In this document: in pieces, positions 31,664 through 45,487 of the stretch
How positions within the stretch are numbered: the first letter of the stretch is position 1
Layout of the letters: every line of letters starts with the position of its first letter
Source of the DNA: Minisyncoccota bacterium
Lineage (GTDB): Bacteria; Patescibacteriota; Minisyncoccia; Phycocordibacterales; UBA9973
Direction: 5' to 3'
Length of the DNA: 64,000 nucleotides
Assembly (NCBI GenBank): GCA_041664605.1
Contig: JBAYKO010000002.1
Coordinates: forward strand, 7,453 to 71,452
The notes under the pieces: model-generated
The model's input: only the letters and a program-made list of their open reading frames with translations
Database searches by the model: none
Told to the model about the DNA's origin: nothing
Translations under genes and position numbers: made by a program

Positions 31664-32443
31664 TTACTTTACACTCTTTAATATTTCTCCAAACTTTTTT
31701 GAATCTAAACTATCTCTACCAACTAAAAGCCCATCTGCTCCACCATTTTCCAAAAAATCTTTTGCATTTTTATGATTTACTGATCCACCATAAACTATTC
31801 TTAGGGAAGAAATATTCTTTACCCCAAACATATCCGATAAAACCCTTCTAATAAAAATACTCATTTCTAAAAATTCTTCTGGTATTGCTTGTCTTTTTGC
31901 ATTTTTCCCAATCGCCCAAATGGGTTCATAAGCAATTATTAATTTGGAAAACATATTTTTAGAGAAACCCTTTAATCCTTCTTCAATTTCTTTCTTAATA
32001 AAAGTCAAATATTCATGATTTTCATCTCTTTCTCTTTCGCCAACACACAAAATTGGGATTATTTTATTTTTCAAACAAGCTTTTATTTTTAAATTAGTCA
32101 TTTCATTTGTCTCACCAAATGCCCGTTTTTCCGAATGACCAACAATCGAATATTTTATCCCTAAGTAATAAAGCATCCTTGGAGAAATTTCTCCAGTAAA
32201 AGAGCCTGATTCTTCCCAGTATAAATCTTGTGCCCCAATAGAAAAATTCTCACTTTTTGAATTTTTAGCCAAATTTTCAAGAAAAATAAAAGGAGGACAA
32301 ATAACCACCTTAGCCTTATTGATTCCGGAAGCTATTTTTTTAATAGCAAAGAACTCTTTTTTCGCCTCGCGCGTTGTCAAAGGGTTCATTTTCCAATTTC
32401 CTATGATAATTTTCCTACCTGTTGACATTATTTTATCCAACAC
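31664..32443 (-). CDS. tpiA: Triosephosphate isomerase
   Basis: 259 aa with IIGNWKMN, AYEPIWAIG and YGGSV motifs. Confidence 0.93.
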   Translation of the reverse strand: MLDKIMSTGRKIIIGNWKMNPLTTREAKKEFFAIKKIASGINKAKVVICPPFIFLENLAKNSKSENFSIGAQDLYWEESGSFTGEISPRMLYYLGIKYSIVGHSEKRAFGETNEMTNLKIKACLKNKIIPILCVGERERDENHEYLTFIKKEIEEGLKGFSKNMFSKLIIAYEPIWAIGKNAKRQAIPEEFLEMSIFIRRVLSDMFGVKNISSLRIVYGGSVNHKNAKDFLENGGADGLLVGRDSLDSKKFGEILKSVK

Positions 32444-32633: not shown

Positions 32634-33941
32634 CTAAGGCTGTAGAACACCACCAATCAAGCAACCCTGGTATCCAAATACACCATTTGCTCCAGTACCA
32701 TAACCAGAATAACCAGTTCCACCATAGATAACGTTACCAGTATCCGTATTGTAAGCCCAAAGATTACAAAGAGTATTACCACCTGCTACAGCAACACCAG
32801 TGTCAACAGAGAATGGGATTAGGCGAGAACCGGCATTAGAACCAGAACCACCACTTGAAAAAATTCCCATTGATTTCGGTAGATAAACATTATTTTTTGT
32901 TTTAGTTTCTTGAGCTTTTAGTAATTCATAAAGAGCAGTCCTTGTTGTAGAATCAACTACTCCTGTTTTAATTAAGCTTTTTTCTTGTTGCAATTTAAGT
33001 ATCGCTGACCTTGTTGCACTACCAAAAGAACCAGTTATTTTTGTAGATAATGGAATATATCCTGCATTTTTTAGAATATATTGAAAAGCTTTTATTTCAT
33101 CACCTTGCATACCAAGAGCAAGAGTAAATGGGTTAGTTGGATTTTGAGCTATTAAACCACCCGAACCACCTCTATTGGTAGGTCCGCCAGTACATTCTTT
33201 AGGAGTTGCAGGCATATTTTGACCTTCACAAGAACTCCATGTCATTATTTGACCATTTAGCCAGCAATTTACAATACATGTTTTTTTATTCCAAATGAAA
33301 TCACCTCGTTGTTGTTTTAAATTTGAATAAGTTGTAGTTGGATTTTTTGTGGCAGTCGTTGTAGTAGTAGAAGTAGTTGTAGTTTTAGTTTCAGTAGTAG
33401 TATTATTAGCAATCTGAGAAGCATTTATAGTAAAAGTATTATTTGAATAATCTGTAAGACCACTTATTTGCCCAGTTGAAATTATTTTCAGTTTGAAATT
33501 ATTTGTTCCCAAAGAAGGAGCATTGACGATACTTGGAGTATGAGAAATATTACTACCAAATGAACTTTCACCTGACCCTAATGAATATGCCATTGAAGGA
33601 ATTGCCATATCAATTATCCAAACTTGTGCTCCTTGTCCAATAGCAATGTTACAACCTGACCAAGTTGGACGTATATTATCATTAAGATTGAAAATTTGCC
33701 CACCATTTGGATTTGTTACTTCTATCCAAGCAGGTGTTGTTGGTAAACAAACTCTCGCAGTAGGACCAGATGTAACAGCACTTGTTACAGCTGCTGACAG
33801 CTGAGATTGTAAATCTAGAACTTTTTGGTTAAGTTCTGAAATTTGATTCATTACATCATCTATTGTTGATGCTTTTGTTATTATTGGCATTGACACAAGC
33901 AACACCGACAATAAAATAAATAGACCTAATATTTTTTTCAT
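32634..33941 (-). CDS. Secreted protein with Thr-rich linker and a C-terminal peptidoglycan-binding (PG_binding_1-like) domain
   Basis: Signal peptide; a run of TTTETKTTTTSTTTTTATKNPTTT; a GDEIKAFQYILKNAGY...SATRSAILKLQQ PG-binding-like segment; Gly-rich tail. Confidence 0.6.
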   Translation of the reverse strand: MKKILGLFILLSVLLVSMPIITKASTIDDVMNQISELNQKVLDLQSQLSAAVTSAVTSGPTARVCLPTTPAWIEVTNPNGGQIFNLNDNIRPTWSGCNIAIGQGAQVWIIDMAIPSMAYSLGSGESSFGSNISHTPSIVNAPSLGTNNFKLKIISTGQISGLTDYSNNTFTINASQIANNTTTETKTTTTSTTTTTATKNPTTTYSNLKQQRGDFIWNKKTCIVNCWLNGQIMTWSSCEGQNMPATPKECTGGPTNRGGSGGLIAQNPTNPFTLALGMQGDEIKAFQYILKNAGYIPLSTKITGSFGSATRSAILKLQQEKSLIKTGVVDSTTRTALYELLKAQETKTKNNVYLPKSMGIFSSGGSGSNAGSRLIPFSVDTGVAVAGGNTLCNLWAYNTDTGNVIYGGTGYSGYGTGANGVFGYQGCLIGGVLQP

Positions 33942-34115
33942 AATTTATGATTGTCCTTCATAGCCTGTTTAGAATTAGAACAAAGCCGAAGGGTTAATTA
34001 ATAATAATATTTTTCAATGTTTTAATTATACCCTCTTATGTTAAAAAGTAAAAGGTAAAAGGGAATTACAAAAATCCCCTAGTTGGGGGATTTTTGTAAT
34101 TAAAATTAATTATTA

Positions 34116-35081
34116 TTACTGACAACCAGCGGGACAATCAGAATCATTATAATTTCCACCTGGCTTACATGGTCCAGCAGAAACTGTATGAGTAACAGAA
34201 TTTCCTGAATTACCGTTACTGTCAGTTACAGTTAAATTAATATTATAAACTAGAGGGTCTGTCGCTGTTGGCCCAGGTCTATCAAAAAGAAAAGTTCTTG
34301 GATTACCAGCAAATGTTTGACTAGGATAACCACCACCACTCTTTGTATATGAATAAGTTAGTGACCCAATTCCACCTTGTGATGTCCCCGTAAGTTGATA
34401 AGTTTTATCAGTACACTCAGTCCCAGTTTTATTTTGAGTAAAAGATGCAGTTACTGCTATATTAGCACTGCAATAATCCGGATTACCACCATTAATACCA
34501 GAACAATTCCAAGAATAAATATGCTGAATTGGTAGTGGGGTTGATGCTATACCAGAGTTACAAAGATTTGTAGGAGGAGATGTCACAAATTGACCATCTG
34601 ACGCACCACAAGCACCATCGATTGAGAAATCACAAATAAATAGTTTTCCTTCACTATCAGCACAAAGCTGTTTTCCTTCATTTCCAGTCAGAGAGCTGAC
34701 TCTCATTTTTCCTAAAGTATTATCAACTCCTTTAACTGTTAGGGCTTCAATATGGATGGCTGTTTCTGGATCTGTTTGTATAAGTTGAGTGTTTAAAACT
34801 GAAAGTTTTTGTGCAAATTGAGAATCTTGTGATGCTAAAAATCCAGCCACAGATAACCCTGCACTTTTTTCAAAAACAGAATTACCTTTATCTATGGGGC
34901 GACATGGATTTGAGTCTGGAAAAGATCCTGGATTATTTAGAGAAGATGATTCTGGTGTTATACAAGTATGACTATCTGATGAAACAATTTTAGAATTTCC
35001 AAAACTTAGATAACTAACAGCAATCCCAAAAACAAGCGCCAGTGATATTATTTTTATTGATTGTAATATTTCTTTTTTCAT
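34116..35081 (-). CDS. Secreted Cys-rich protein, paralog family A (start likely MKKEILQS)
   Basis: Conserved N-terminal signal MKKEILQ..KI..L.L....S.G and a Cys-rich module shared with 35242 and 36917 (VC....G.L..C.....GCG...GQ.....P..LC..G....W.W.C.G.NGG...C). Confidence 0.6.
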   Translation of the reverse strand: MKKEILQSIKIISLALVFGIAVSYLSFGNSKIVSSDSHTCITPESSSLNNPGSFPDSNPCRPIDKGNSVFEKSAGLSVAGFLASQDSQFAQKLSVLNTQLIQTDPETAIHIEALTVKGVDNTLGKMRVSSLTGNEGKQLCADSEGKLFICDFSIDGACGASDGQFVTSPPTNLCNSGIASTPLPIQHIYSWNCSGINGGNPDYCSANIAVTASFTQNKTGTECTDKTYQLTGTSQGGIGSLTYSYTKSGGGYPSQTFAGNPRTFLFDRPGPTATDPLVYNINLTVTDSNGNSGNSVTHTVSAGPCKPGGNYNDSDCPAGCQ

Positions 35082-35241
35082 CCTGTAGTGAATTTTCAAA
35101 TTGTTTTTTAAAACAGGTTTGAATTTTTAATTAATGTTTAATATTTTTTACGACTTTAATATTATTTTTTATTTTATTACCCCGTAATAATTTGAAAATC
35201 TGCTACGGGATTCATATTTTTGCTTTTATGCCAATTAGTTA

Positions 35242-36879
35242 TTAAAGTTTAGTGAATTTAATATAACCATTTCCTCCAACTCCTCCACCAGCTCCAGAGT
35301 TACAACCACCTCCACTACCACGATCTCCTCCACCTCCACCTCCACCTCCTTGTCCACCAGTACCAAGATTTCCATTATCTCCACCTGTTCCGTTACTTTC
35401 CTCACCATAAGCTCCTCCGTTTATAAGAACCCCATCGTAACAAGAAGATCCTCCTCCATTTCCACCATTACCTCCATGACCATCTGCTCTTGTATCTCCA
35501 TTGTATCCATTTCCACAACCAGAATTTTGACAAGAGTTTGGATTACAACTTCCAGCACCACCTGAACCACCTTGTCCGTAGAGATAATATGATCCATCAG
35601 TACCACCAAACCCGCCCTGACCACCAGGTGCAGACAAAGTTAAGACAGTAGTAGCTTCTCCACTTCCTCCATAATCCCCAGAAGTGACACCATCGCCACA
35701 AGCAGCACCATTATCAAAACCACGATTACCGCCAGCACCAACATGAAATGAAATCGTTTGGCCAGCAGTTAAATTTGTTTCAAGATAAGAATACCCACCC
35801 ATACCTCCTCCACCACCTCCTTGTCCACCAGTATTAGTAAGACTATCTAAAGCTCCCCCACCTCCTTGTCCTCCACCTCCACGAGCTTCAATTTTATAAT
35901 TACCACCACAACCAGCATGAATGGTATAAGACGAAGAACCTGGAGTTGTAAAATTGAAATTTGGTTGGTCACAATTAACAGGAACAGGTGCCTCACATGG
36001 TGCATCTATACCTCCGTTTATTCCAAAACATGTCCAATGCCATGATGAACCATCACTAGTAACGAGAGAAGCATTACCTTGTGAACAAAGACTGCCATAC
36101 ATATCATCTGGCGCCGAAGAAGCTGGAACAGAATCTGCTGGACCGCAAGCTCCAGGAATTGCAGGACATAAAATTAATTTTCCCAAAACATCAACACACA
36201 CCTCTTTATTACTATTATTTACCAAAGACGAAAGTTTCATATTTTGAGCTCTTTCAGTCCCAGCAACATCCAAAACATATTCGTCTGTATCAGTACCACC
36301 AAATATTTCACCAAATATTCCACCTTGAGCCAAATTAGGAATACATTGCGCCCCTAAATTGGGAACAATTTCACAATGTGTATCCGAAGGACAATTCAAA
36401 AGATCACATCCGCTTGGATTTGGAATACAAGTTGTAAAATAACAATAAAAACCAGTAGTACAAGCAGGATTACACCCTATTCCTTCAGGAGAAATAGGAT
36501 CAACAAGATCAGCTAACACTTTTTTTATATTAAAAGTTTTATTTAAAAAACTGAGTGAATTATTTATTCCTTTATAGTTAAACACTTGTTGAGATCCTCC
36601 ATTTCCTTCTTCCCCTGGAATAACAGGAGGAGTATAAGTACCAACAATTAGTTTAGTATAGAACCAGGCATTTTCTGTTGCAAAAAATGGATCAACTGCT
36701 AAATTACCATTTTTTACTTGAGCAGAAGTACTATTATTTACAGGGCCTGAAGTCGGTGTTCCTGCTTGTGATGTAGGGAAATTCCAAGTAGTGTTTGTGG
36801 CAAAAGCAAAGCCAATTGAAAGACAGACAATTAATCCTAGTATAGTTATTTTTAATCCTTGTAATATTTCTTTTTTCAT
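35242..36879 (-). CDS. Secreted Cys-rich + Gly-rich repeat protein, paralog family A
   Basis: Shared signal and Cys module, then ~200 aa of GGxGGxGG repeats (ARGGGGQGGGG...). Start taken at MKKEILQG to avoid overlap with 36917. Confidence 0.6.
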   Translation of the reverse strand: MKKEILQGLKITILGLIVCLSIGFAFATNTTWNFPTSQAGTPTSGPVNNSTSAQVKNGNLAVDPFFATENAWFYTKLIVGTYTPPVIPGEEGNGGSQQVFNYKGINNSLSFLNKTFNIKKVLADLVDPISPEGIGCNPACTTGFYCYFTTCIPNPSGCDLLNCPSDTHCEIVPNLGAQCIPNLAQGGIFGEIFGGTDTDEYVLDVAGTERAQNMKLSSLVNNSNKEVCVDVLGKLILCPAIPGACGPADSVPASSAPDDMYGSLCSQGNASLVTSDGSSWHWTCFGINGGIDAPCEAPVPVNCDQPNFNFTTPGSSSYTIHAGCGGNYKIEARGGGGQGGGGALDSLTNTGGQGGGGGGMGGYSYLETNLTAGQTISFHVGAGGNRGFDNGAACGDGVTSGDYGGSGEATTVLTLSAPGGQGGFGGTDGSYYLYGQGGSGGAGSCNPNSCQNSGCGNGYNGDTRADGHGGNGGNGGGSSCYDGVLINGGAYGEESNGTGGDNGNLGTGGQGGGGGGGGDRGSGGGCNSGAGGGVGGNGYIKFTKL

Positions 36880-36916
36880 ATTTTTTATATTTGTTTTGTT
36901 TTTAGGATTAATAATT

Positions 36917-38233
36917 TTAATTCCAGACAACCTTTAGCCAACCACTTCCACCATTTCCACCACTTCCGCCAGAGTGTAGAGAACCATATCCTCCACCTCC
37001 TCCACCTCCTCCATAACCACCAGTTTGGTTTCCTCCAGGGCCTGAAGCTCCAGGATCCCCTGCTTTTTCTGCAGGATCACCATTAAACCCAGCAGGACCA
37101 CCAAGAACAGTTACACCACTGCAACCAGTACCACCCCCATTTCCACCATTTCCATAAGTAGAAGGTTTTCCATCAGCATAATAATCAGCTGGACAATCTC
37201 CGAAATAACCGCTAGTTCCTTGGAATCCACCCCAATTTATATTGTTACCATAATCACCACCTCCTTTACCCCCAGGAGCAACCAAGTATGAACCGAATGA
37301 AGTACTCCCGGCATCTCCTCCAGGAATTCCTGTTTTGTCTTCTGTGCTTCCACTATTTGCACCACCAGCACCACCAGCACCACCAGCACCAATGGTAATC
37401 GGTATAACTTGCCCTGATGTTATTCCTAATTGTAAATAAGTATTATCTAATGAACCAAGTCCGCCACGTCCGCCTCCGCCACCTCCCATCTGGGAACCAA
37501 AGGCACTTTCATTACTACCACCAGCACCACCTCCTCCTCCACCACGAGCTGTTACTACTATATGAGAACAACCAAGTGGAACTGTCCAACTAGAAGATCC
37601 GACAGTATTAAATATTTGAGATCCAGAAATACAGGCGGGGATTGTAGCACAAGAAACCGTTGATCCGAGTGGGGGTGGAGTTGTACATGTCCAATTAAAT
37701 GGACCACCTAAAACACCAGTAACAGCAGATGGTGACCCTCCTGTAGCACAAAGATTTGTTGTTGGTGCATTCATAAATACCTGACCATATGAAGTTCCAC
37801 AACCAGGCATAACAAGATCTGGACATTTAATTAACTGCCCAATACTATTAGCACAAACTCTTTTCTGAGTTGAATTTATTAACCCTGTGATTTTTACATC
37901 ACCAGCGATTTTTTTATTTCCAAAAACTGTTAGTGTGTCCGGAATTGGTTGCCCAAGTTGATAAAATACTGGTATGTCATTCCCAACTACAACTTTTCTG
38001 TTAACACTTGAATTTTGAGTTGCTAAAAACGACATGACTGATAAATCTCCCTTTTTTACTTGAGCAACTATTCCTTCGTGAATATATGGATAGGTATTTC
38101 CATTATTAGTTAGATCTGTCGGGGGAGTGTTTGATGGGGTAAGAAATGTCTGCGCATTCAACATCCCAACACTAAGACTTATTATTAGTCCTAAAAAAAT
38201 TATTTTTCCTGCTTGTATAAAATCTTTTTTCAT
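36917..38233 (-). CDS. Secreted Cys-rich + Gly-rich repeat protein, paralog family A
   Basis: MKKDFIQAGKIIFLGLIISLSVG signal, Cys module, ARGGGGGGAGG... Gly repeats. Confidence 0.6.
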   Translation of the reverse strand: MKKDFIQAGKIIFLGLIISLSVGMLNAQTFLTPSNTPPTDLTNNGNTYPYIHEGIVAQVKKGDLSVMSFLATQNSSVNRKVVVGNDIPVFYQLGQPIPDTLTVFGNKKIAGDVKITGLINSTQKRVCANSIGQLIKCPDLVMPGCGTSYGQVFMNAPTTNLCATGGSPSAVTGVLGGPFNWTCTTPPPLGSTVSCATIPACISGSQIFNTVGSSSWTVPLGCSHIVVTARGGGGGGAGGSNESAFGSQMGGGGGGRGGLGSLDNTYLQLGITSGQVIPITIGAGGAGGAGGANSGSTEDKTGIPGGDAGSTSFGSYLVAPGGKGGGDYGNNINWGGFQGTSGYFGDCPADYYADGKPSTYGNGGNGGGTGCSGVTVLGGPAGFNGDPAEKAGDPGASGPGGNQTGGYGGGGGGGGYGSLHSGGSGGNGGSGWLKVVWN

Positions 38234-38303
38234 AGTTTTTGCTTTCCCGCAGAAGGCGGGACGCCCCGCCTTCTGCGGGACAAATTAACAATTATTTATA
38301 ATT

Positions 38304-39638
38304 TTAAATTTCTATCCATTTAGCTTTTTTATTTGAAGTTGATGAAGGACATGGCAAATCGTCTGGCCCTTGAATACCCTCATCATTTGGGCAAAGATCA
38401 AGAGGTTGGTCATTACAAAGAAGGTCAATCACTGGAGCTGATATTTCTTGATGATAAATAATAGATGGATCTTCAAGGTCAACACAATCTATAGAAGCAC
38501 TACTCGAATTTAAATTATATGGTATTAAAATATTATCAGCTTGTTGAGGATGTCCCCCTGTTACAGGAGGGGTAAAATTATAACCCCAAGATGTCTCACA
38601 ATAACCAACATCAAAAACATTATATACAATTTCATACCACTCATCTGCACTAGAGACACAAGTGGTAGGTGAGTATAAATACCATGATGGATTTAACGGA
38701 ACATAACTAACTGTTGTAGAAGCTGTTTGAGTTGCCATACTTGGAACTTCTATACAACTAATAGTGAAAGTTGTTGTTGAATTAGTTAATGGAACATCCA
38801 CTAATTTTGTAAATGGCCCAAAACCATTACCATTATTAGGAACCTGAATAGTATCGCCTGACGATGTAGTACCAAATAAACCATCCCAATCATTTGATCC
38901 ATCTACGGTAGCAGTACATGGACTTGAGCCTGAGCAAGAGAATGCTTCACAATTATTAAAGTTTGTTGATGTTGGAGACTGCCAAGTTAATGTAGTCGTA
39001 TTATTAGAAAATGTGATAGATGAAGGAGAAGCTGAAATCTGAAGGTCGGCCGCACCCCCTGTTGCAATTTTCATATTACTAAAATCTACCCAACCAACAA
39101 CATAAGAACCCCAGCCCATGTGAGTGCCTGTTGCTTTCATAACTTCTAAATCTGGGTCTGTTAAAGGTGGCGTGTCTGGCCCAAAAGCAATTGGTTCTGT
39201 AGAGTCTGGATTACCAAATAAAATCCACCCATCCCAACCATCGTTTGACCCGTTTATTGCCTTTGCAAAACCAACAACAGTATTTGTATCAGGATCAAAA
39301 TATGCCCCAGTTCTCCAGCTATTAGGGACACCATCAGTAGGGAAACTACTTAATCCACCAAATTTAACCCAGCCAATGTTCGAAGACCATGCGTAACCAG
39401 AAAGTTCGTTTTGAGAATTTATTTCTACTCCATATGGTACATTCCCATTAGAGCAATCAGGATTAGAACCCATTGGGTTATTACAATTATTGAAACTTAT
39501 CCAACCAATGTTTTGAGACCATGCTTCACCATAAACATTTTGCATTGGACTAGCAAAAGTTTTTTGATTTGTAAAAAATAAGGAGATTATAAAAATAAAA
39601 ATAAATAATGAGAATTTAAAAATTTTACCTTTTATCAT
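38304..39638 (-). CDS. Secreted protein with N-terminal NIGW/IGWV tryptophan repeats
   Basis: Signal MIKGKIFKFSLFIFIFIISLFF; repeats AWSQNIGWISFN, YAWSSNIGWVKFG, GWGSYVVGWVDFSN. Start is uncertain; the ORF track extends to 39710. Confidence 0.55.
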   Translation of the reverse strand: MIKGKIFKFSLFIFIFIISLFFTNQKTFASPMQNVYGEAWSQNIGWISFNNCNNPMGSNPDCSNGNVPYGVEINSQNELSGYAWSSNIGWVKFGGLSSFPTDGVPNSWRTGAYFDPDTNTVVGFAKAINGSNDGWDGWILFGNPDSTEPIAFGPDTPPLTDPDLEVMKATGTHMGWGSYVVGWVDFSNMKIATGGAADLQISASPSSITFSNNTTTLTWQSPTSTNFNNCEAFSCSGSSPCTATVDGSNDWDGLFGTTSSGDTIQVPNNGNGFGPFTKLVDVPLTNSTTTFTISCIEVPSMATQTASTTVSYVPLNPSWYLYSPTTCVSSADEWYEIVYNVFDVGYCETSWGYNFTPPVTGGHPQQADNILIPYNLNSSSASIDCVDLEDPSIIYHQEISAPVIDLLCNDQPLDLCPNDEGIQGPDDLPCPSSTSNKKAKWIEI

Positions 39639-39837
39639 ATCTAAAATAATAACACAAATACATTTTAATTTAAACACACTGTGGAAAAACAAACCATCTT
39701 CCCAAATCAAAAAAGGTTATAATTTTTAGTTTTAGTCCTAAAAAAATTAGGACTTTATTGTTACTTATCTGTATAATTTGAATAGACTTTTTATTGTACA
39801 AAAAAATAATAAAATACTATGAAAGGAGGTGTTAAAT

Positions 39838-40056
39838 ATGGGTTTATTTGATTTTATTTTTGGTTCGAGTACAGGCTCTGACCCAAAGACCAGGGTTTCA
39901 GATAACGGAGAAAAAATAACCGTAAGAAATAGTGATGTTGTTTTTGATCACAATTCAGGAAAACACGAAACTGCTTGGTCAAAAACAGAAGTTGATACAA
40001 GGACTGGTGATTCAAAAACAAGTGAAGGTGCACATGGGTCCAACTACCAAAAATGA
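39838..40056 (+). CDS. Small hypothetical protein (72 aa) with a canonical Shine-Dalgarno
   Basis: GAAAGGAGGTGTTAAATATG. This is the only clear GGAGG Shine-Dalgarno seen in the window. Confidence 0.45.
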   Translation: MGLFDFIFGSSTGSDPKTRVSDNGEKITVRNSDVVFDHNSGKHETAWSKTEVDTRTGDSKTSEGAHGSNYQK

Positions 40057-40139
40057 GTTATCAAATTCATTTTTGGTATACAAAAAAAACGCTGGGGTAT
40101 GTTATACATTCAGCGTTTTTTATTTTATAATAGAAGGGT

Positions 40140-40418
40140 ATGAACAAAATAACATCAGAAGAAAATAAAGAACTATTTTTAAAAACTTCTATTGTGATGG
40201 GCTTTATTTTATTAGGAGAAAATATTTTAGCAAAAGAATTATTTGAAAAACTAAATTTTCTAAAATTAAAAGATTCTAAAAATAGAGTCAATCCATATTT
40301 ATATAATCTAGCTTATGAGTTATTTCTATTTTTTGATGATAGAGATGTGACAACAATAGAAGATATTAAATCTGAATACAGAAAATGTTGTATTGAATAT
40401 AAAAATTTAGATAAATAA
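40140..40418 (+). CDS. Hypothetical protein (92 aa)
   Basis: ORF followed by a bidirectional terminator at 40433-40463. Confidence 0.4.
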   Translation: MNKITSEENKELFLKTSIVMGFILLGENILAKELFEKLNFLKLKDSKNRVNPYLYNLAYELFLFFDDRDVTTIEDIKSEYRKCCIEYKNLDK

Positions 40419-40468
40419 ATAATATAAAAAACAAATCCCCCGCCGGTTACACCGTGGGGGATTTTAAA

Positions 40469-42037
40469 TTAGTTAGAAACAACAATTTTACCTTTTTTGA
40501 TATTCAAATCATAAAGGTAAATTCCAGAAGAAACATTTAAATTAATGATTTCTTCTTGTTTGTCTATCTTTTTCGAAAAAATAAGCCTCGAGGAAAGATC
40601 GTAGAGATTGAAAGTAAAACCTTGTGCATTTGTAATAATTAAATTACCAATAGTAGGATTTGGAAACAAAGAAATCTGATTTTCTCCAATATTTTCCTCC
40701 GTTACCGAAGTTATTATTGAATAGCAGATTTGTTGTGTGGGTGTAGCTGAACCAACAATAGTTGCTGGAGTATTAACTACAACAGAATCTGTAACATCAA
40801 CTGTCTGTAAAACAACATTATTAACAACAGTCGCTGGTGTAGAAGATATCATTCCTGCATTTTCTTCATCACATCCAGATGTTCCTGACCATTCAGCTTT
40901 TACTAAATAAAGTTTGCTTTGTGAAAAACCAGTTGCAATAAAACCTCCATCAGATGTTTGCATCCCAGAATAAAAATAGTCACCATTTGTAGTCGATAAA
41001 CCAATTAATTTATTCCATAAAATTGAGCCGTTAGCATCAATTTTTACCAAGCAAGCATCATCATCCCAATCTGTAGAATCGCCAGACATTCCAAAAATTG
41101 CATACCCGCCATCAGATGTTTGAGACATTGAATAACTTCTTTCCCAATTTCCATTACCAATAGTCTTAGACCATTCAAGATTTCCATTTGCATCAGTTTT
41201 TACAACATAAAAGTTGTCATCATATTGAGTGTTAACAAAACTTTCAGTGTACCCACAAGCAATAAAACCCCCATCTTGAGTTTGAAGTACTGAATAACCA
41301 CCATCAGCAAGGGGTCCGCCATAAAGTTTTGACCACACTAGATTACCAAGACTATCAGTCTTAATTAGACAAAGATCATAATTACCAGCACCAATATATC
41401 CTCCGTGCCAACCAGTAATAATAAAACCATGATCATTTGTCTGTTGGATTGAAAGTCCGTAATCAGTATCACCACCATCATACATCTTAGACCATTGTAA
41501 GTTTCCATTTGAATTAAGTTTAATAATCCAAATATCAGCAAAAATTGAGCCAAAACCTTCGGTGTATCCCAAAATAACGTAGCCTCCATCAGATGTTTGT
41601 TTTACGGAATAGGAGTAATCATCTCTGTCTGACGAAAATGTTCTTGACCATTCTAAGTTTCCGCTTGCATCAGTTTTAATCACGTAAACGTCTTCAAAGT
41701 ATATTAGGGTTGGAAACGAAGAAGTTTCCCCTGCGATAATATAGCCACCGTCAGATGTTAATTCAATAGAGTAACCAACATCAATACCAGTTCCACCATA
41801 AGTTTTACTCCATAATTTAATACCATCTGCATCAGTTTTAATGAGACAGACTTCATCGTTTACATACCCAGTGATGACATATCCACCATCGGGTGTTTGT
41901 TTTACATCGTTTCCCAGCCCAGCTGATCCAAATAATCTTTGGAAAATAGGCATTTGAGTTTGAGTTTTCCCTGTTTGAGCTATCAATACGAAGCCAAACA
42001 AAAGAATAATAATTGTGAAAAATTTGTTTGTTTTCAT
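40469..42037 (-). CDS. Secreted beta-propeller-like repeat protein (SDGGY repeats) with a C-terminal domain resembling a Por/T9SS-type sorting domain
   Basis: Signal peptide; at least six repeats of (T/Q)(S/N)DGG(Y/F)(I/V/A)I.G. The C-terminus reads LFPNPTIGNLII...FNLYDLSSRLIF...GIYLYDLNIKKGKI. Confidence 0.55.
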   Translation of the reverse strand: MKTNKFFTIIILLFGFVLIAQTGKTQTQMPIFQRLFGSAGLGNDVKQTPDGGYVITGYVNDEVCLIKTDADGIKLWSKTYGGTGIDVGYSIELTSDGGYIIAGETSSFPTLIYFEDVYVIKTDASGNLEWSRTFSSDRDDYSYSVKQTSDGGYVILGYTEGFGSIFADIWIIKLNSNGNLQWSKMYDGGDTDYGLSIQQTNDHGFIITGWHGGYIGAGNYDLCLIKTDSLGNLVWSKLYGGPLADGGYSVLQTQDGGFIACGYTESFVNTQYDDNFYVVKTDANGNLEWSKTIGNGNWERSYSMSQTSDGGYAIFGMSGDSTDWDDDACLVKIDANGSILWNKLIGLSTTNGDYFYSGMQTSDGGFIATGFSQSKLYLVKAEWSGTSGCDEENAGMISSTPATVVNNVVLQTVDVTDSVVVNTPATIVGSATPTQQICYSIITSVTEENIGENQISLFPNPTIGNLIITNAQGFTFNLYDLSSRLIFSKKIDKQEEIINLNVSSGIYLYDLNIKKGKIVVSN

Positions 42038-42434: not shown

Positions 42435-42839
42435 TTATAGATTTTTGAGAGAGTTCAATAAGTCTAATTTTTGTTGATCTGTTAGTCCGTCACTATTTTT
42501 TGTAGTTCCTGAATTTGCTCCAGAAGTAGAGCCAGTTGTTCCCGATGTTGTACCACTAGTATTTTTTACAGTACCGGATGATAAATTATTTAAAATTTTT
42601 GCTTTTTGATCGGTTGTTAGATTCATGTCTTTTGAAGAATCAGACAGGTCTTTTAAAATATCCAATTTTTGTTGCTCATTTAAGTTATTCATATCAACAG
42701 GCTTTCTAAGTAATAAATAACCAACAACAAGAAGTGCTGTAAGTGCCACTATTAATAAAATTATTCTTAATTTATTTTTTGGATTTTTTAAATCCATTGC
42801 TCCACTATTTTTTTGAGGAAAAATATTTATACTTTTCAT
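42435..42839 (-). CDS. Hypothetical membrane-anchored protein with Ser/Thr/Gly-rich segment (134 aa)
   Basis: TM anchor, then SGTTSGTTGSTSGANSGTT. Confidence 0.45.
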   Translation of the reverse strand: MKSINIFPQKNSGAMDLKNPKNKLRIILLIVALTALLVVGYLLLRKPVDMNNLNEQQKLDILKDLSDSSKDMNLTTDQKAKILNNLSSGTVKNTSGTTSGTTGSTSGANSGTTKNSDGLTDQQKLDLLNSLKNL

Positions 42840-42943: not shown

Positions 42944-43294
42944 TTGTGGGAAAAACCCCCACACCTTTTATTTTATTGTCTTAGGTCATATACCTGCACA
43001 ACCTTTCAAGAAGAAAGGTGTGGAGGTATAATTTTTTATATGTATTATTTATATATTCTAAAAAGTTTAAAAGATGAAAAATTGTATATTGGTTCAACTA
43101 ATGACCTAAGACGAAGACTTTCGGAACATAATAATGGCCTTAATCGTTCAACAAAAGCACGACTGCCATTTGAAATTAGGTATTACGAAGCTTATAAAAG
43201 TGAGTATGATGCTAGAAAAAGAGAATATTCATTAAAAAAAGATGGAAAGGCATTAGGGCAACTAAAAAAGAGAATATCCGAAAGTCTTCTATAA
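42944..43294 (+). CDS. GIY-YIG nuclease domain protein (likely starts at internal Met about 43040, ~85 aa)
   Basis: YYLYILKSLKDEKLYIGSTNDLRRRLSEHN is GIY-YIG. Flanked by CCCCCACACCTTTT (42956-42969) and its exact reverse complement AAAAGGTGTGGGGG (43298-43311). Confidence 0.7.
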   Translation: MWEKPPHLLFYCLRSYTCTTFQEERCGGIIFYMYYLYILKSLKDEKLYIGSTNDLRRRLSEHNNGLNRSTKARLPFEIRYYEAYKSEYDARKREYSLKKDGKALGQLKKRISESLL

Positions 43295-43364: not shown

Positions 43365-43850
43365 TTAATTCCCGGCAAATAGAAACTTAGTAAGTTCCTG
43401 ATTTGATCCGTAAGAAAATGATGTTTTAAGCTCTGTTCCATTTCTGGGACAAAAACTAAAATAGAAGAAAATTGGTTTTCCAACTAAATGAATAGTATTA
43501 ATGAATGGAAAAATTCTTATTCCAGATTTTCCATGATTAATACCAGCAAAAATTGCTTCATGAATACTCACTTGTCCGAGACTTTGTCCTTTTCCCAAAT
43601 TATCCAGTTGGTAAAAACCAACATTATTTTTTAGAGACAAGAGATGTAAATTTCTGTGTGAGTTTCTTTTGTGACCTTTTTCTTCTTCTGCCAAAATTAA
43701 ATGGCGTAAATAATTCTCTGTTTCAAGACTTATTTTTACAAATTTTTTTAAAAGTGTAAGCAATTCGTCTGCAGACAAACTGTAATCAACTTTCAATCCG
43801 TCTAAAATTTTTCTTTCTTTAATCATTGTATAATTTTTTATAATGAACAA
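43365..43850 (-). CDS. Hypothetical protein (161 aa)
   Basis: ORF only; no recognisable motif. Confidence 0.4.
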   Translation of the reverse strand: MFIIKNYTMIKERKILDGLKVDYSLSADELLTLLKKFVKISLETENYLRHLILAEEEKGHKRNSHRNLHLLSLKNNVGFYQLDNLGKGQSLGQVSIHEAIFAGINHGKSGIRIFPFINTIHLVGKPIFFYFSFCPRNGTELKTSFSYGSNQELTKFLFAGN

Positions 43851-44074: not shown

Positions 44075-45487
44075 ATGTTAGATATAAAAGTAATGAAATC
44101 CGCTCTTGAACAATTAGAAGAAGAGCGAAAAATTCCAAAAGAAAAAATAATCGAAGCTATCGAGCAGGCTGTTGCCGCTGCTTACAAAAAAGATTACGGC
44201 AAGAAAGGCCAGATAGTTAGAACTCATCTTGATATGGATACAGGTGCACTTGAATTTTCTCAAGTAAAAATTGTTGTTGATGACACTCTTGTAAAAATGC
44301 CAAAAGACGAAGATGAGGAAGGTGAAGAAAAACAAACTGAAGAAATTGTTGATGATGGAGATGAGAGAGCTTATTTTAATCCTGAACATCACATCTGGCT
44401 TGAAGATGCAAAAAAAATAAAAAGTAATGTTAAGCTCGAAGAAGAAATTATTTTTCCACTTGAAATGCGTGATGACTTCGGAAGAATCGCAGCACAAACC
44501 GCAAAGCAAGTTATTATCCAAAGAATTCGAGAAGCAGAAAGAGAATCAATTGTCGGAGAGTATGGAGAAAAGGAAGGAGAAATCGTTAGTGGAATAGTTC
44601 AAAAAATTGAACACGGTGATGTCTTCGTAGATTTCAATAGAACAGTCGGAGTAATTCCTTTCAGTGAACAAATTCCAAATGAACACTACAGAAGAGGTGA
44701 AAGAATTCGCGCATACTTGTACATGGTTGAAGAAACTCCACGCGGAGTAAATTTGAGATTATCTCGAACTCATCCAAAATTTTTAGAAAAACTTTTTGAA
44801 ATGGAAGCACCAGAAATCGCAAGTGGCGTTGTTGAAATAAAAAGTGTTGCTCGCGAACCAGGATCAAGATCTAAGATCGCGGTTAAATCAAATGATGAAC
44901 ATATTGATCCAGTGGGATCATGTGTCGGCCAACGCGGTGTCAGAGTTTCGACAGTAATGAATGAATTGGGTGGAGAAAAAATTGATCTTATAGAATGGTC
45001 AGATGATCCAAAAAAATTCGTCTCAAGTTCTCTGTCACCAGCAAAAGTTTTAGATATTGAAATTGATGAAAATTTACATCGTGCAAATGTCGAAGTTGCA
45101 GAAGATCATCTATCTCTTGCAATCGGTAAAGGAGGACAAAATGTTCGTCTCGCTGCAAAATTAACTGGATGGAAAATTGATATCAATGGAGTACAAAATG
45201 AAGAAGTTGCAAGCGATGAAGATAAAATTGAAACTGATAATGATAATGAGGAAATTGATAGTGAAACACTTGAAGAAAAATTTGGAAGCGAACAAGTAGT
45301 TGATGAAACAGATGAAAGCAAGGAAGGAATAGAGAATATTACTGATGAAACTGATGAAGAAGATAGTGATGAAAATGAAAACAAAGTGGGGGATGAACCA
45401 GCTATTCAAATAATAAATGATGAAAAAATAAAAGTTGATGACTCTCCTGCCATAGAAATTGTGAAAGAGAAAAAGAAGAAAAAATAG
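44075..45487 (+). CDS. nusA: Transcription termination/antitermination factor NusA with long acidic C-terminal tail
   Basis: S1 domain (GEIVSGIVQKIEHGDVFVDF) and KH domains (GSRSKIAV...CVGQRGVRV; LAIGKGGQNVRLA), then a D/E-rich C-terminal ~90 aa. Confidence 0.9.
   Translation: MLDIKVMKSALEQLEEERKIPKEKIIEAIEQAVAAAYKKDYGKKGQIVRTHLDMDTGALEFSQVKIVVDDTLVKMPKDEDEEGEEKQTEEIVDDGDERAYFNPEHHIWLEDAKKIKSNVKLEEEIIFPLEMRDDFGRIAAQTAKQVIIQRIREAERESIVGEYGEKEGEIVSGIVQKIEHGDVFVDFNRTVGVIPFSEQIPNEHYRRGERIRAYLYMVEETPRGVNLRLSRTHPKFLEKLFEMEAPEIASGVVEIKSVAREPGSRSKIAVKSNDEHIDPVGSCVGQRGVRVSTVMNELGGEKIDLIEWSDDPKKFVSSSLSPAKVLDIEIDENLHRANVEVAEDHLSLAIGKGGQNVRLAAKLTGWKIDINGVQNEEVASDEDKIETDNDNEEIDSETLEEKFGSEQVVDETDESKEGIENITDETDEEDSDENENKVGDEPAIQIINDEKIKVDDSPAIEIVKEKKKKK

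What the first reader, a model, noticed from the sequence alone, without database searches (positions are those of the whole stretch)
32634..42037. Accessory cluster of six co-oriented secreted proteins, including three Cys-rich/Gly-repeat paralogs
Six consecutive minus-strand genes all carry signal peptides. Three (34116, 35242, 36917) share a conserved signal MKKEILQ..KI..L.L and a Cys-rich module (VC....G.L..C.....GCG...GQ...P..LC...W.W.C.G.NGG...C), followed by very long GGxGGxGG low-complexity tails. One gene has a peptidoglycan-binding domain and Thr-rich stalk. One has NIGW tryptophan repeats. One has SDGGY beta-propeller repeats plus a C-terminal segment resembling a Por/T9SS sorting domain. 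The region looks like a diversifying cell-surface or adhesion locus of the kind expected in an episymbiotic or host-attached small-genome bacterium.
Basis: partly seen in the sequence, partly recalled or inferred. Interest (0 to 1): 0.65.

Follow-up and report, generated by a model that had tools for sequence, protein, structure and literature searches.

The report
Conserved CPR surface-fibre gene array
This stretch of a tiny host-dependent bacterium (Candidatus Paceibacterota) encodes exported surface proteins, three of them fibre-like with binding heads of the kind phages carry on their tail fibres. It is the local copy of an uncharacterised gene block that sits between nusA and tpiA across this bacterial group, often running straight into the type IV pilus genes.

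Summary
All six ORFs exist, and each starts with a basic, then hydrophobic, Sec-type segment. Three details of the observation are wrong. Only C and D carry Gly-rich regions; B does not. Those regions are a Pfam Gly_rich_2 domain that also matches phage tail-fibre PHROGs, not low-complexity tails. Two opposite-strand ORFs separate F from E.

The source is a Candidatus Paceibacterota MAG. B, C and D share a ~130-aa leader/stalk module ("LEAD") that no Pfam or NCBIfam model covers. They also share a 57-aa four-Cys module found in more than 3000 protein clusters, often as tandem repeats.

E (NIGW repeats) belongs to a large Patescibacteria family. In 80 related genomes LEAD genes lie next to E on the same strand: 71 ORFs within 4 kb against 5 farther away. 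The usual order is nusA | E–LEAD×1–3–(pilB–pilC)–tpiA–pgk. A LEAD-anchored search gave the same link. Neither family occurs in IMG/VR.

So E–D–C–B is a conserved lineage module with variable heads, not an accessory island. A and F are local additions.

Best reading: Sec-exported, disulfide-stabilised surface fibres with swappable receptor-binding heads, genetically tied to the pilus locus. This mechanism is inferred.

The parts
38304..39638 (-). Gene E (444 aa; the ORF extends to 39710). Sec-type leader, NIGW/Trp-repeat domain, Cys-containing Ig-like C-terminal half, and a C-terminal ...KWIEI tail.
   Evidence: 785 homologs, all hypothetical and mostly Paceibacterota/Parcubacteria; the exact match is WDK96_01150; at least 546 tblastn-confirmed loci in GTDB species genomes; no Pfam or NCBIfam model covers the N-terminal domain.
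38904..39551 (-). NIGW-repeat domain of E (residues ~30-245). It has four G-x-AWS-x-N-[IV]-GW-[IV]-x-F type beta hairpins.
   Evidence: conserved G/W columns. AF2 block-mean pLDDT is mostly 72-93 over residues 31-140, drops below 50 at 151-170 and is 64-89 over 171-240; no Foldseek match below 1e-3 in PDB or BFVD.
38307..38321 (-). Extreme C-terminus of E (KWIEI). It is a degenerate copy of the family-wide terminal motif P-x-[FYW]-x-E-x.
   Evidence: 84 of 120 family members end in P-x-[FYWILV]-x-[ED]-x(0-4), against 1.2 expected from shuffles.
36917..38233 (-). Gene D (438 aa), a LEAD-family fibre protein: leader/stalk module, Cys module, Gly_rich_2 head.
37823..38233 (-). LEAD N-terminal module of D (residues 1-137): signal peptide, the conserved ...TP..PP...Q.K.G.L.V... 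stretch, and the VC....G.L..C hairpin.
   Evidence: the HMM built from this module hits 76 ORFs in 46 of 80 E-anchored loci.
37631..37822 (-). Cys module of D (residues 138-201): CG...P..NLC..G....W.C....C.
   Evidence: 3379 representative clusters match, often as tandem repeats; pLDDT above 90; no PDB match.
36935..37606 (-). Gly_rich_2 domain of D (residues 210-433).
   Evidence: PF21722, 38.9 bits; phrog_863 at 1.4e-19 and phrog_6202 at 3.1e-07.
37383..37391 (-). 9-nt (GAG) repeat indel inside D's Gly-rich domain. It is the only indel across 21.6 kb when compared with a 99.95%-identical population.
35242..36879 (-). Gene C (545 aa; the ORF extends to 36930), a LEAD-family protein. It carries a ~100-aa extra Cys-rich insert in the stalk, a Cys module (35977-36165) and a Gly_rich_2 head (35260-35949).
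34116..35081 (-). Gene B (321 aa; the ORF extends to 35099), a LEAD-family protein. LEAD module 34632-35081, Cys module 34452-34631, then a non-Gly beta-rich C-terminal domain (PKD-like by eye).
32634..33941 (-). Gene A (435 aa). Signal peptide, short coiled coil, beta domain, Thr-rich linker, small Cys domain, PG_binding_1 (32931-33107) and a Gly/Tyr-rich C-terminus. It is specific to this locus.
   Evidence: the PG-binding part matches endolysin PHROGs; no relative in the 80 related loci; a terminator-like hairpin at 34080-34060 separates A from B, but the scan total (13 found; shuffles mean 7.2, sd 3.0) is not clearly above chance.
40469..42037 (-). Gene F (522 aa). Signal peptide, SDGGY/delta-60-type beta-propeller repeats, and a T9SS type A C-terminal domain (40481-40669).
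   Evidence: NCBI name 'T9SS type A sorting domain-containing protein'. GC3 is native. L044 carries a distant analogue in the same slot.
39838..40418 (+). Two small opposite-strand ORFs (72 aa at 39838-40056; 92 aa at 40140-40418) that interrupt the run between E and F.
   Evidence: called genes; no family.
42435..42839 (-). Small single-pass membrane protein (134 aa) with tandem [ST]xx[EQ][KR]xx[IL][IL]xxL repeats. Relatives sit next to E in other genomes.
   Evidence: TM segment at residues 21-48; weak phmmer hits in 17 of 80 loci, adjacent to E and on the same strand in most (for example L010, L018, L055, L063, L074, L080); in L044 the hit lies next to the F-like gene.
31664..32443 (-). tpiA, the downstream syntenic anchor of the slot.
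44075..45487 (+). nusA, the upstream divergent syntenic anchor of the slot.

Best explanation
E-D-C-B is this genome's copy of a gene module conserved across Paceibacteria, at a fixed chromosomal position between nusA and tpiA. The module consists of one NIGW-domain protein (E) followed by a tandem array of 'LEAD' proteins.

Proposed mechanism:
1. LEAD proteins are exported by Sec.
2. Signal peptidase I probably cuts them just before a conserved mature N-terminus. The family consensus is A|W-[TS]-x-P-[TS]-x-x-P-P-x-x-N-x-x-x-P-[ILV]-N-x-[GS]-x-x-x-Q-x-K-x-G-x-L.
3. Disulfides stabilise the Cys hairpin and the 4-Cys module outside the cell.
4. The proteins are displayed as fibre-like surface structures. 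The conserved N-terminal module is the common attachment or assembly handle. The exchangeable C-terminal domain is the binding head.
5. In C and D the head is a Gly_rich_2 domain, the family that also matches phage tail-fibre PHROGs. In B the head is a different beta-domain.
6. E is the conserved partner, a candidate wall- or fibre-docking scaffold.
7. The module serves contact with the host cell surface and works beside, or together with, the type IV pilus whose pilB-pilC genes follow it directly in many relatives.

A (peptidoglycan-binding) and F (beta-propeller with a T9SS-type C-terminal domain) are further exported wall or surface proteins added locally to the same slot.

Shown: the gene structure, paralogy, domain assignments, conservation, synteny, strand linkage and absence from viral contigs. 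Inferred: export and cleavage, disulfides, fibre or trimer formation, docking to E, and host binding.
For: Paralogy and shared modules.

Export-type N-termini without lipobox, class III pilin motif or LPXTG.

Heads:
- Gly_rich_2 in C and D.
- D matches tail-fibre PHROGs at 1.4e-19.
- In phage Pam3 gp24 the TNF-like plus glycine-rich domains, with GGGGxGG motifs, are described as responsible for recognising the host receptor on a trimeric fibre (PMC9608196).
- Across 82 LEAD proteins the heads include Peptidase_S74 (8), Gly_rich_2 (6), Flg_new_2 (4), fn3 (3) and collagen (2). From my own knowledge, S74 and collagen are typical of trimeric fibres.

Conservation and linkage:
- The E family has at least 546 loci in GTDB species genomes.
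- All 76 LEAD ORFs, in 46 of 80 E-anchored loci, lie on E's strand.
- 71 LEAD ORFs lie within 4 kb of E and 5 farther away, in equal amounts of sequence.
- The recurrent order is Trigger-NusA | E-LEADx1-3-(PilB-PilC)-TIM-PGK. Gaps or overlaps of a few bases to pilB occur in L077, L045, L060, L020 and L068.
- Layouts identical to the window, without pilBC, occur in L010, L032, L044 and L076.
- Reverse test: 15 of 29 LEAD-anchored metagenome loci of at least 8 kb carry E on the same strand.

Cellular, not viral: no E or LEAD relatives in 2.9 million IMG/VR contigs.

Conserved mature N-terminus directly after an Ala-rich -1/-3 site.

CPR context: these bacteria are enriched in an MdbA-like thiol-disulfide oxidoreductase and in T4P, and lack PilQ and a Gram-negative envelope (PMC6744442).
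Against: - There is no experimental or expression evidence for any member.
- Signal peptides were judged heuristically only.
- I obtained no structure for the LEAD N-terminal module.
- Trimerisation is inferred from the domain company kept by other family members, not from B, C or D themselves.
- The Gly_rich_2 score of C is only just above its cut-off, and no PDB sequence match was found.
- E's domain has no fold match, so its scaffold role is a guess.
- This window and about 18 kb of extra contig contain no pilB, pilC or pilins. A working link to pili cannot be shown for this genome.
- The synteny counts come from related genomes and are not phylogenetically independent.
Confidence: 0.5

Rival explanations
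1. The module depends on the pilus. E and LEAD proteins would be accessory parts or cargo of the type IV pilus machine: tip or shaft-associated adhesins, or Sec-exported proteins pushed through the wall by a T2SS-like pseudopilus. They would not be free-standing surface fibres.
For: In many relatives E or the last LEAD gene abuts or overlaps pilB, followed by pilC and N_methyl pilins, on one strand. 20 of 80 E-anchored loci have pilB within 10 kb.
Against: B, C, D and E lack the class III signal and any N_methyl hit. Several genomes, including this one, keep E-LEAD in the slot without pilB/pilC (L010, L032, L044, L076). No pilB/pilC lies in the 64-kb window or in about 18 kb of extra contig.
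Confidence: 0.22
2. The proteins are envelope structure rather than adhesins. E would be a wall-anchored S-layer or scaffold protein, with its Trp-rich repeats binding a wall polymer. LEAD proteins would be structural envelope components whose variable domains reflect immune or phage evasion, not host recognition.
For: E is a single conserved gene at a fixed core position. It has aromatic repeat hairpins followed by Ig-like, PKD or CARDB domains in its relatives. A peptidoglycan-binding protein (A) is encoded alongside.
Against: No match to SLH, CW_binding, GW or other wall-binding models. The LEAD heads are of receptor-binding or fibre type.
Confidence: 0.15
3. The cluster is an idiosyncratic accessory or horizontally acquired island, or a prophage remnant carrying tail-fibre genes.
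For: A has no relative in the 80 related loci, and F has only one distant relative. D's head matches phage tail-fibre PHROGs. A GIY-YIG ORF and orphan small ORFs lie nearby. The region's GC is a little higher than its surroundings.
Against: E-LEAD is syntenic across many genomes. GC3 of all six genes is 0.13-0.21, against 0.18-0.24 for housekeeping genes; the raised GC comes from Gly codons. No E or LEAD relative occurs in IMG/VR. No other phage genes are in the neighbourhood.
Confidence: 0.08

Closest known systems
Phage tail-fibre receptor-binding proteins with a TNF-like plus glycine-rich domain (e.g. myocyanophage Pam3 gp24; Pfam Gly_rich_2 PF21722; related to the ALK/LTK glycine-rich ectodomain)
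   Same: C and D end in a Gly_rich_2 domain with GGGGxGG runs. D also matches tail-fibre PHROGs. The overall logic matches gp24: a conserved N-terminal docking part and a variable distal binding head (PMC9608196).
   Different: These are chromosomal genes of a bacterium, with Sec-type leaders and extra Cys modules. There is no phage context, and the E and LEAD families are absent from IMG/VR contigs. No PDB sequence match was found, and no separate chaperone gene was recognised.
Type IV pilus operons of monoderm and CPR bacteria, with associated adhesins
   Same: The chromosomal neighbourhood is the same. In relatives the module is followed on the same strand by pilB, pilC and N_methyl pilins. 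T4P are thought to be central to CPR-host contact (PMC6744442).
   Different: B, C, D and E are not pilins: they have no class III signal and no N_methyl hit. This genome's slot lacks pilB and pilC.
Fibre and spike proteins carrying the endosialidase-type intramolecular chaperone (Peptidase_S74)
   Same: 8 of 82 LEAD-family proteins in other genomes end in Peptidase_S74 and 2 contain collagen repeats. This suggests a family of trimeric fibres.
   Different: B, C and D themselves have no S74 or collagen domain.
T9SS cargo proteins of Bacteroidota (type A C-terminal domain)
   Same: F has a complete-looking CTD. TIGR04183 scores above its cut-off, and PNP, GxY and terminal K-[IL]-hydrophobic motifs are visible.
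   Different: The host is a Patescibacterium, a group without a Gram-negative envelope (PMC6744442). From my own knowledge T9SS is confined to the Bacteroidota/FCB lineages. The Pfam score is just under threshold. No T9SS component could be looked for genome-wide.
Gram-positive surface-protein families that share a conserved signal-peptide motif (YSIRK/GS type); comparison from my own knowledge
   Same: LEAD leaders share a sequence motif inside the signal peptide (MKK-x-[IL]-[IL]-Q-x-[IL]-K-[IL][IL]). It is conserved across genomes while the passenger domains vary.
   Different: The motif is different, there is no LPXTG or sortase signal, and no evidence exists for a dedicated targeting route.

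Membership tests
Pfam Gly_rich_2 (PF21722), glycine-rich domain | HMM score at or above the gathering cut-off (24.3 bits) over most of the 226-position model | tested here: met
   D scores 38.9 bits (model positions 2-221) and C 24.4 bits (1-221, marginal). B has no hit.
Phage tail-fibre receptor-binding head (TNF-like plus glycine-rich fold, trimeric) | The three-dimensional fold (polyglycine-type lattice on a TNF-like sandwich) and trimer formation | not tested
PDB sequence searches found nothing. Only the profile links to Pfam and PHROGs exist.
Prophage or phage-encoded tail fibre | Phage genomic context, or presence on viral contigs | tested here: not met
   The neighbours are nusA, tig, clpP, tpiA and pgk. 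No E or LEAD relatives occur in IMG/VR. tblastn of D against GenBank phages found no match, though the low-complexity filter was on.
Type IV pilins and minor pilins | Class III signal (short basic leader, G|F-T-L-x-E, hydrophobic helix) or a PF07963 N_methyl hit | tested here: not met
   No N_methyl hit. No G[FMIL][TS][LI]xE motif in A-F or anywhere in the window's ORFs.
Sortase-anchored surface proteins | C-terminal LPXTG-like motif followed by a hydrophobic segment and a basic tail | tested here: not met
   there is no terminal LPXTG; the single internal VPLTN in E is not C-terminal; no C-terminal hydrophobic segment. Whether the genome has a sortase gene could not be tested.
Bacterial lipoproteins | Lipobox [LVI][ASTVI][GAS]C at the end of the signal peptide | tested here: not met
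   none within the first 40 residues of A-F.
T9SS type A cargo (F) | C-terminal sorting domain above the curated cut-off | tested here: inconclusive
   TIGR04183 scores 32.8 bits against a cut-off of 23, so it is met. PF18962 scores 26.5 against 27, just missed. The motifs are visible by eye.
T9SS type A cargo (F) | A T9SS translocon (SprA, PorV, PorU and others) and an outer membrane in the same organism | not testable with these tools
   Only about 82 kb of the genome could be seen, and it holds no such genes. Literature says CPR lack a Gram-negative envelope.
PG_binding_1 wall-binding proteins (A) | PF01471 at or above its 23-bit cut-off | tested here: met
   45.2 bits over residues 279-337. 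No catalytic hydrolase domain was detected; only the binding part of the endolysin models matches.
delta-60 / SBBP beta-propeller repeats (F) | TIGR02608 at or above its 76.5-bit cut-off | tested here: not met
   42.8 bits, with one repeat matched at 3.5e-11. The repeat type is similar but below the family cut-off.
Known wall-binding repeat families for E (CW_binding_1, GW, SLH) | Any Pfam or NCBIfam hit on the NIGW domain | tested here: not met
   none among 120 family members.
LEAD family (defined here) | Match to the 130-position N-terminal HMM: leader, W-x-x-P...PP...N...P-[ILV]-N...Q-x-K-x-G-x-L, and the C....G.L..C hairpin | tested here: met
   B, C and D score 1e-44 to 1e-51, but they are part of the seed. 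Independent members from other genomes score 1e-23 to 1e-4. In B, C and D the W-x-x-P part is degenerate.

The most novel reading that the evidence does not exclude
Paceibacteria may carry a previously undescribed surface-fibre system, genetically fused to the type IV pilus operon. It would have three parts:
- a conserved NIGW-domain protein (E) with a C-terminal P-x-aromatic-x-E-x tag;
- a small repeat-bearing membrane protein;
- a tandem array of LEAD fibres, which share one assembly handle and carry interchangeable phage-receptor-binding-type heads (glycine-rich/TNF-like, S74-chaperoned, collagen, Ig).

In effect these would be bacterial 'tail fibres' that decide which host cell the episymbiont can attach to. 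The array composition would then predict host range.
Probability: 0.3. Interest if true: 0.75.

Novelty: new variant of a known kind. Interest (0 to 1): 0.55.

Why it matters
How uncultured CPR bacteria recognise and hold on to their hosts is largely unknown beyond type IV pili. A module that is conserved in position, wired to the pilus operon and built from one constant handle plus swappable phage-like binding heads is a concrete candidate for the specificity determinant. It can be tested in cultured Paceibacteria/Minisyncoccia-host pairs.

The work also marks four widespread sequence elements that lack any curated family:
- the LEAD leader/stalk module;
- the 57-aa four-Cys repeat module;
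- the NIGW domain;
- the terminal motif of the E family.

For this particular window the result is more modest. It is an ordinary local instance of that uncharacterised module, plus two locus-specific exported proteins.

Tried and rejected
- Word-indexed homolog searches with D, full-length and N-terminal, returned almost nothing. Gly-rich words swamped the candidate set.
- The exhaustive HMMER search list was dominated by multi-copy Cys-module proteins. It could not show single-copy LEAD relatives.
Narrower alignments worked.
- Foldseek against PDB and BFVD gave no significant match for E or for the Cys module.
- PDB sequence searches with D and with a Gly-rich profile found nothing.
- tblastn of D against GenBank phages found nothing.
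- Promoter and terminator scans were not clearly above shuffled expectation, so the operon boundaries remain uncertain.
- Walking the contig outward about 18 kb found no pilB/pilC, T9SS or sortase genes.
- Rejected on direct motif tests: pilins, sortase substrates, lipoproteins.
- Rejected: prophage remnant and recent local gene duplication.
- Literature searches found no description of these families or of T9SS-type domains in Patescibacteria.

Full report
**1. Observation**

The window is AT-rich (GC about 0.31). It carries the six minus-strand ORFs at the stated coordinates. I label them:
- A, 32634-33941
- B, 34116-35099
- C, 35242-36930
- D, 36917-38233
- E, 38304-39710
- F, 40469-42037

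Public gene calls and the homologous leaders place the real starts of B, C and E at 35081, 36879 and 39638.

Each protein begins with a basic stretch, a single hydrophobic segment and an AxA-like site. None has another hydrophobic segment apart from one borderline 19-mer in C. None has a lipobox, a class III pilin motif or a terminal LPXTG. This fits Sec export, but SignalP was not available.

B, C and D are paralogs: B vs D 7e-20, C vs D 2e-10. They share a leader, MKK[ED][IF][IL]Q..KI, a ~130-aa N-terminal region, a C....G.L..C hairpin and a four-Cys module.

Three points of the observation need correcting.
- Only C and D have Gly-rich regions; B does not.
- Those regions are Pfam Gly_rich_2 (D 38.9 bits, C 24.4 bits, cut-off 24.3). 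D also matches phage tail-fibre PHROGs (1.4e-19).
- Two plus-strand ORFs called as genes in public assemblies lie between E and F.

A has PG_binding_1. F has delta-60/SBBP-like repeats and a T9SS type A domain: TIGR04183 32.8 bits against a cut-off of 23, Pfam 26.5 against 27.

**2. Source**

E, F, A, B and C are identical to proteins of a Candidatus Paceibacterota MAG (locus tags WDK96_01130 onward). The same proteins appear in independent ENA, JGI and Logan assemblies. A second population is 99.95% identical over 21.6 kb. Its only indel is a 9-nt GAG repeat unit inside D's Gly-rich domain.

**3. The modules**

*Cys module.* A profile of the N-terminal half of B, C and D was searched against 1.84 billion representative proteins. 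It gave 3379 hits.
- The top 150 nearly all match only profile positions ~147-206. This 57-aa Cys module (CG..NG.....P..NLC..G..S.V.G.GPW.W.C.G.NGG..A.C.A) occurs as tandem repeats of up to about 30 copies in proteins of up to 5587 aa.
- It has no Pfam model, even in proteins made almost entirely of it.
- The proteins carrying it are named hypothetical in Paceibacterota, Pacearchaeota and Alphaproteobacteria MAGs.
- AF2 models the module confidently (pLDDT above 90). Foldseek finds no solved relative (best E = 1).

*E family.* The E N-terminal domain has 785 word-indexed homologs, all hypothetical, and at least 546 confirmed loci in GTDB species genomes.
- Its repeats (G-x-AWS-x-N-[IV]-GW-[IV]-x-F) are modelled with block-mean pLDDT mostly 72-93 over residues 31-140 and 64-89 over 171-240, with a sub-50 gap at 151-170. 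They have no fold match in PDB or BFVD.
- C-terminal to the repeats, relatives carry Ig-like, PKD or CARDB domains.

**4. Synteny, the main result**

The window order is rny - clpP - tig - nusA | small ORFs, F, E, D, C, B, A | tpiA - pgk - HIT - recJ. Relatives keep the same backbone. In L008 and L006/L007 the nusA-tpiA slot holds an E homolog followed by pilB, pilC and N_methyl pilins.

In L003 the E homolog is followed by two proteins whose first ~120 residues are homologous to B, C and D, and then by pilB and pilC. I call this shared module LEAD.

In 80 E-anchored loci from GTDB genomes:
- A LEAD HMM finds 76 ORFs in 46 loci, every one on E's strand.
- 71 of them lie within 4 kb of E and 5 farther away, in equal amounts of sequence (508 kb vs 504 kb). 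31 of 52 loci with at least 2 kb on both flanks have one within 4 kb.
- nusA occurs in 29 loci, pilB in 20 and tpiA in 16.
- The recurring map is Trigger(-) NusA(-) | E(+) LEAD(+)x0-3 [PilB PilC ...] TIM(+) PGK(+).
- L010, L032, L044 and L076 copy the window's pilus-less layout.
- L077, L045, L060, L074, L042 and L027 have the LEAD array running into pilB with gaps of a few to some hundred bases (a few to tens in L077, L045, L060 and L042). In L020 and L068 E overlaps pilB.

The reverse test used 80 metagenome loci anchored on LEAD. Of the 29 that are at least 8 kb long, 15 have E on the same strand, mostly adjacent, and 6 have pilB/C.

Neither E nor LEAD has relatives in 2.9 million IMG/VR contigs.

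**5. The LEAD family**

Its consensus runs: a basic leader with an internal Q..K motif, a hydrophobic core, then ...A-(A)-W-[TS]-x-P-[TS]-x-x-P-P-x-x-N-x-x-x-P-[ILV]-N-[VI]-[GS]-x-x-x-Q-x-K-x-G-x-L. Among 82 members W appears in 62, Q in 78 and K in 75. The conserved sequence therefore starts right at the likely signal-peptidase site. B, C and D keep the Q-x-K-x-G-x-L part and have a degenerate W-x-x-P part.

No Pfam or NCBIfam model covers the module.

C-terminal domains vary widely among the 82 members: Peptidase_S74 (8), Gly_rich_2 (6, including C and D), Flg_new_2 (4), fn3 (3), collagen (2) and Hint (2).

B, C and D are as far from each other (37-39% identity in the module) as from LEADs of other genomes (36-41%). 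They are old paralogs, not recent duplicates.

**6. Interpretation**

What is shown:
- E-D-C-B is the local copy of a conserved Patescibacteria module in a fixed slot. It has one constant protein (E) and an array of proteins that combine a constant N-terminal module with exchangeable heads.
- It is cellular, not viral.
- In many genomes it is contiguous with the pilus assembly genes.

What is inferred:
- Sec export and cleavage before the conserved N-terminus.
- Extracytoplasmic disulfides. CPR are enriched in an MdbA-like oxidoreductase (PMC6744442).
- Fibre architecture, probably trimeric. S74 and collagen partners are typical of trimeric fibres (my own knowledge). [quoted passage not shown]
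- The N-terminal module as a shared docking handle, E as its partner or wall scaffold, and the heads as host-surface binders.

I put this reading at about 0.5.

The main rival, at about 0.22, is that the proteins are pilus-dependent accessories or cargo. The tight pilB linkage favours it. Two facts weaken it: there are no pilin signals, and several genomes, including this one, keep E-LEAD in a slot without pilB/pilC. A purely structural envelope role gets about 0.15. An accessory island or prophage remnant gets about 0.08 and holds at most for A and F.

**7. A and F**

A is an exported protein with a coiled coil, a beta domain, a Thr-rich linker and PG_binding_1, but no recognisable catalytic domain. 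It has no relative in the 80 related loci.

F is separated from E by two opposite-strand ORFs. Its codon composition is native: GC3 is 0.21 against 0.18-0.24 for housekeeping genes.

A distant analogue of F (23-27% identity) sits in the same slot of another genome, L044, a Minisyncoccia MAG. It too has a signal peptide, a beta-propeller and a T9SS-type C-terminal domain (TIGR04183, 40.1 bits). In both genomes the gene follows a small repeat-bearing membrane protein.

Patescibacteria lack a Gram-negative envelope. From my own knowledge T9SS belongs to Bacteroidota and their relatives. The domain is therefore unlikely to work as a T9SS signal here. Whether the genome has any T9SS or sortase gene could not be tested.

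**8. Comparison, novelty and verdict**

The closest known things are:
- phage tail-fibre receptor-binding proteins with glycine-rich heads;
- S74-chaperoned fibres;
- monoderm and CPR type IV pilus loci;
- T9SS cargo (F only).

Membership in the pilin, sortase-substrate, lipoprotein and prophage classes was tested and failed. Gly_rich_2 and PG_binding_1 membership is met.

I found no paper describing the LEAD module, the NIGW family, the Cys module or the nusA-E-LEAD-pilBC-tpiA block. Only open-access text was searched.

I rate the finding a new variant of a known kind: modular exported surface fibres or adhesins. Interest is 0.55. The window itself is an ordinary instance, but the module it belongs to is widespread, uncharacterised and experimentally approachable.

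Noticed in passing
window 38307-38321 (C-terminus of E); E-family proteins P0006-P0124: The E family carries a conserved motif at the extreme C-terminus, P-x-[FYWILV]-x-[ED]-x(0-4). 70 members have exactly one residue after the acidic position (for example KKPKFIER, KTPGYIEQ, TPVFEES). It occurs in 84 of 120 members, against 1.2 expected from shuffles, and in 1 of 82 LEAD proteins. A few members continue after 'EIPP' into a hydrophobic tail. It looks like a sorting, processing or docking tag, and I could not match it to a known one.
   Followed up: partly
window 40481-40669 (F); L044:16295-17791: T9SS type A C-terminal domains sit on beta-propeller proteins in two different Paceibacteria/Minisyncoccia genomes. 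Both are in the nusA-tpiA slot and both follow a small repeat-bearing membrane protein. The lineage is not expected to have an outer membrane or a T9SS.
   Followed up: partly
window 42435-42839 (-); e.g. L010:8423-8731, L074:9617-9943, L055:9513-9914, L044:15828-16106: A small single-pass membrane protein with tandem [ST]xx[EQ][KR]xx[IL][IL]xxL repeats recurs in the module. Weak phmmer hits occur in 17 of 80 loci, in most of them adjacent to E and on the same strand. It may be a third conserved member of the module.
   Followed up: partly
window 37383-37391: A 9-nt (GAG) unit is gained or lost in D's Gly-rich domain. It is the only indel across 21.6 kb between two 99.95%-identical populations; the only SNP is at 44908 in nusA. 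This points to repeat slippage in the binding head.
   Followed up: yes
proteins P0125-P0273; P0126, P0129: The 57-aa four-Cys module forms tandem arrays of up to about 30 copies in giant proteins of up to 5587 aa. It appears in MAGs labelled Pacearchaeota (DPANN archaea) and Alphaproteobacteria as well as CPR. It has no Pfam model and no solved structural relative.
   Followed up: partly
window 35977-36879 (gene C, stalk insert at about residues 90-200): C carries an extra ~100-aa insert in the LEAD stalk, with eight more cysteines (GCNPACTTGFYCYFTTCIPNPSGCDLLNCPSDTHCEIVPNLGAQCIP). B and D lack it.
   Followed up: no
window 42944-43294 (+) and 43365-43850 (-): A GIY-YIG nuclease-domain ORF (1.5e-17) and an orphan 161-aa ORF lie between nusA and the surface-protein block. 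In L006 the equivalent space holds two small ORFs that look like a toxin-antitoxin pair by eye. The upstream end of the slot seems to collect small mobile or selfish genes.
   Followed up: no
L090:14146-16878 (same contig, about 4 kb beyond the window's left edge): A 910-aa protein has faint TraG-D_C and DUF8128 hits, possibly part of the Patescibacteria conjugation-type T4SS. It is not related to the finding.
   Followed up: no
window 25148-26659 (-): A ComEC competence channel (Competence plus DUF4131 domains) lies about 6 kb downstream of the block. No pilus genes were seen in the window.
   Followed up: no
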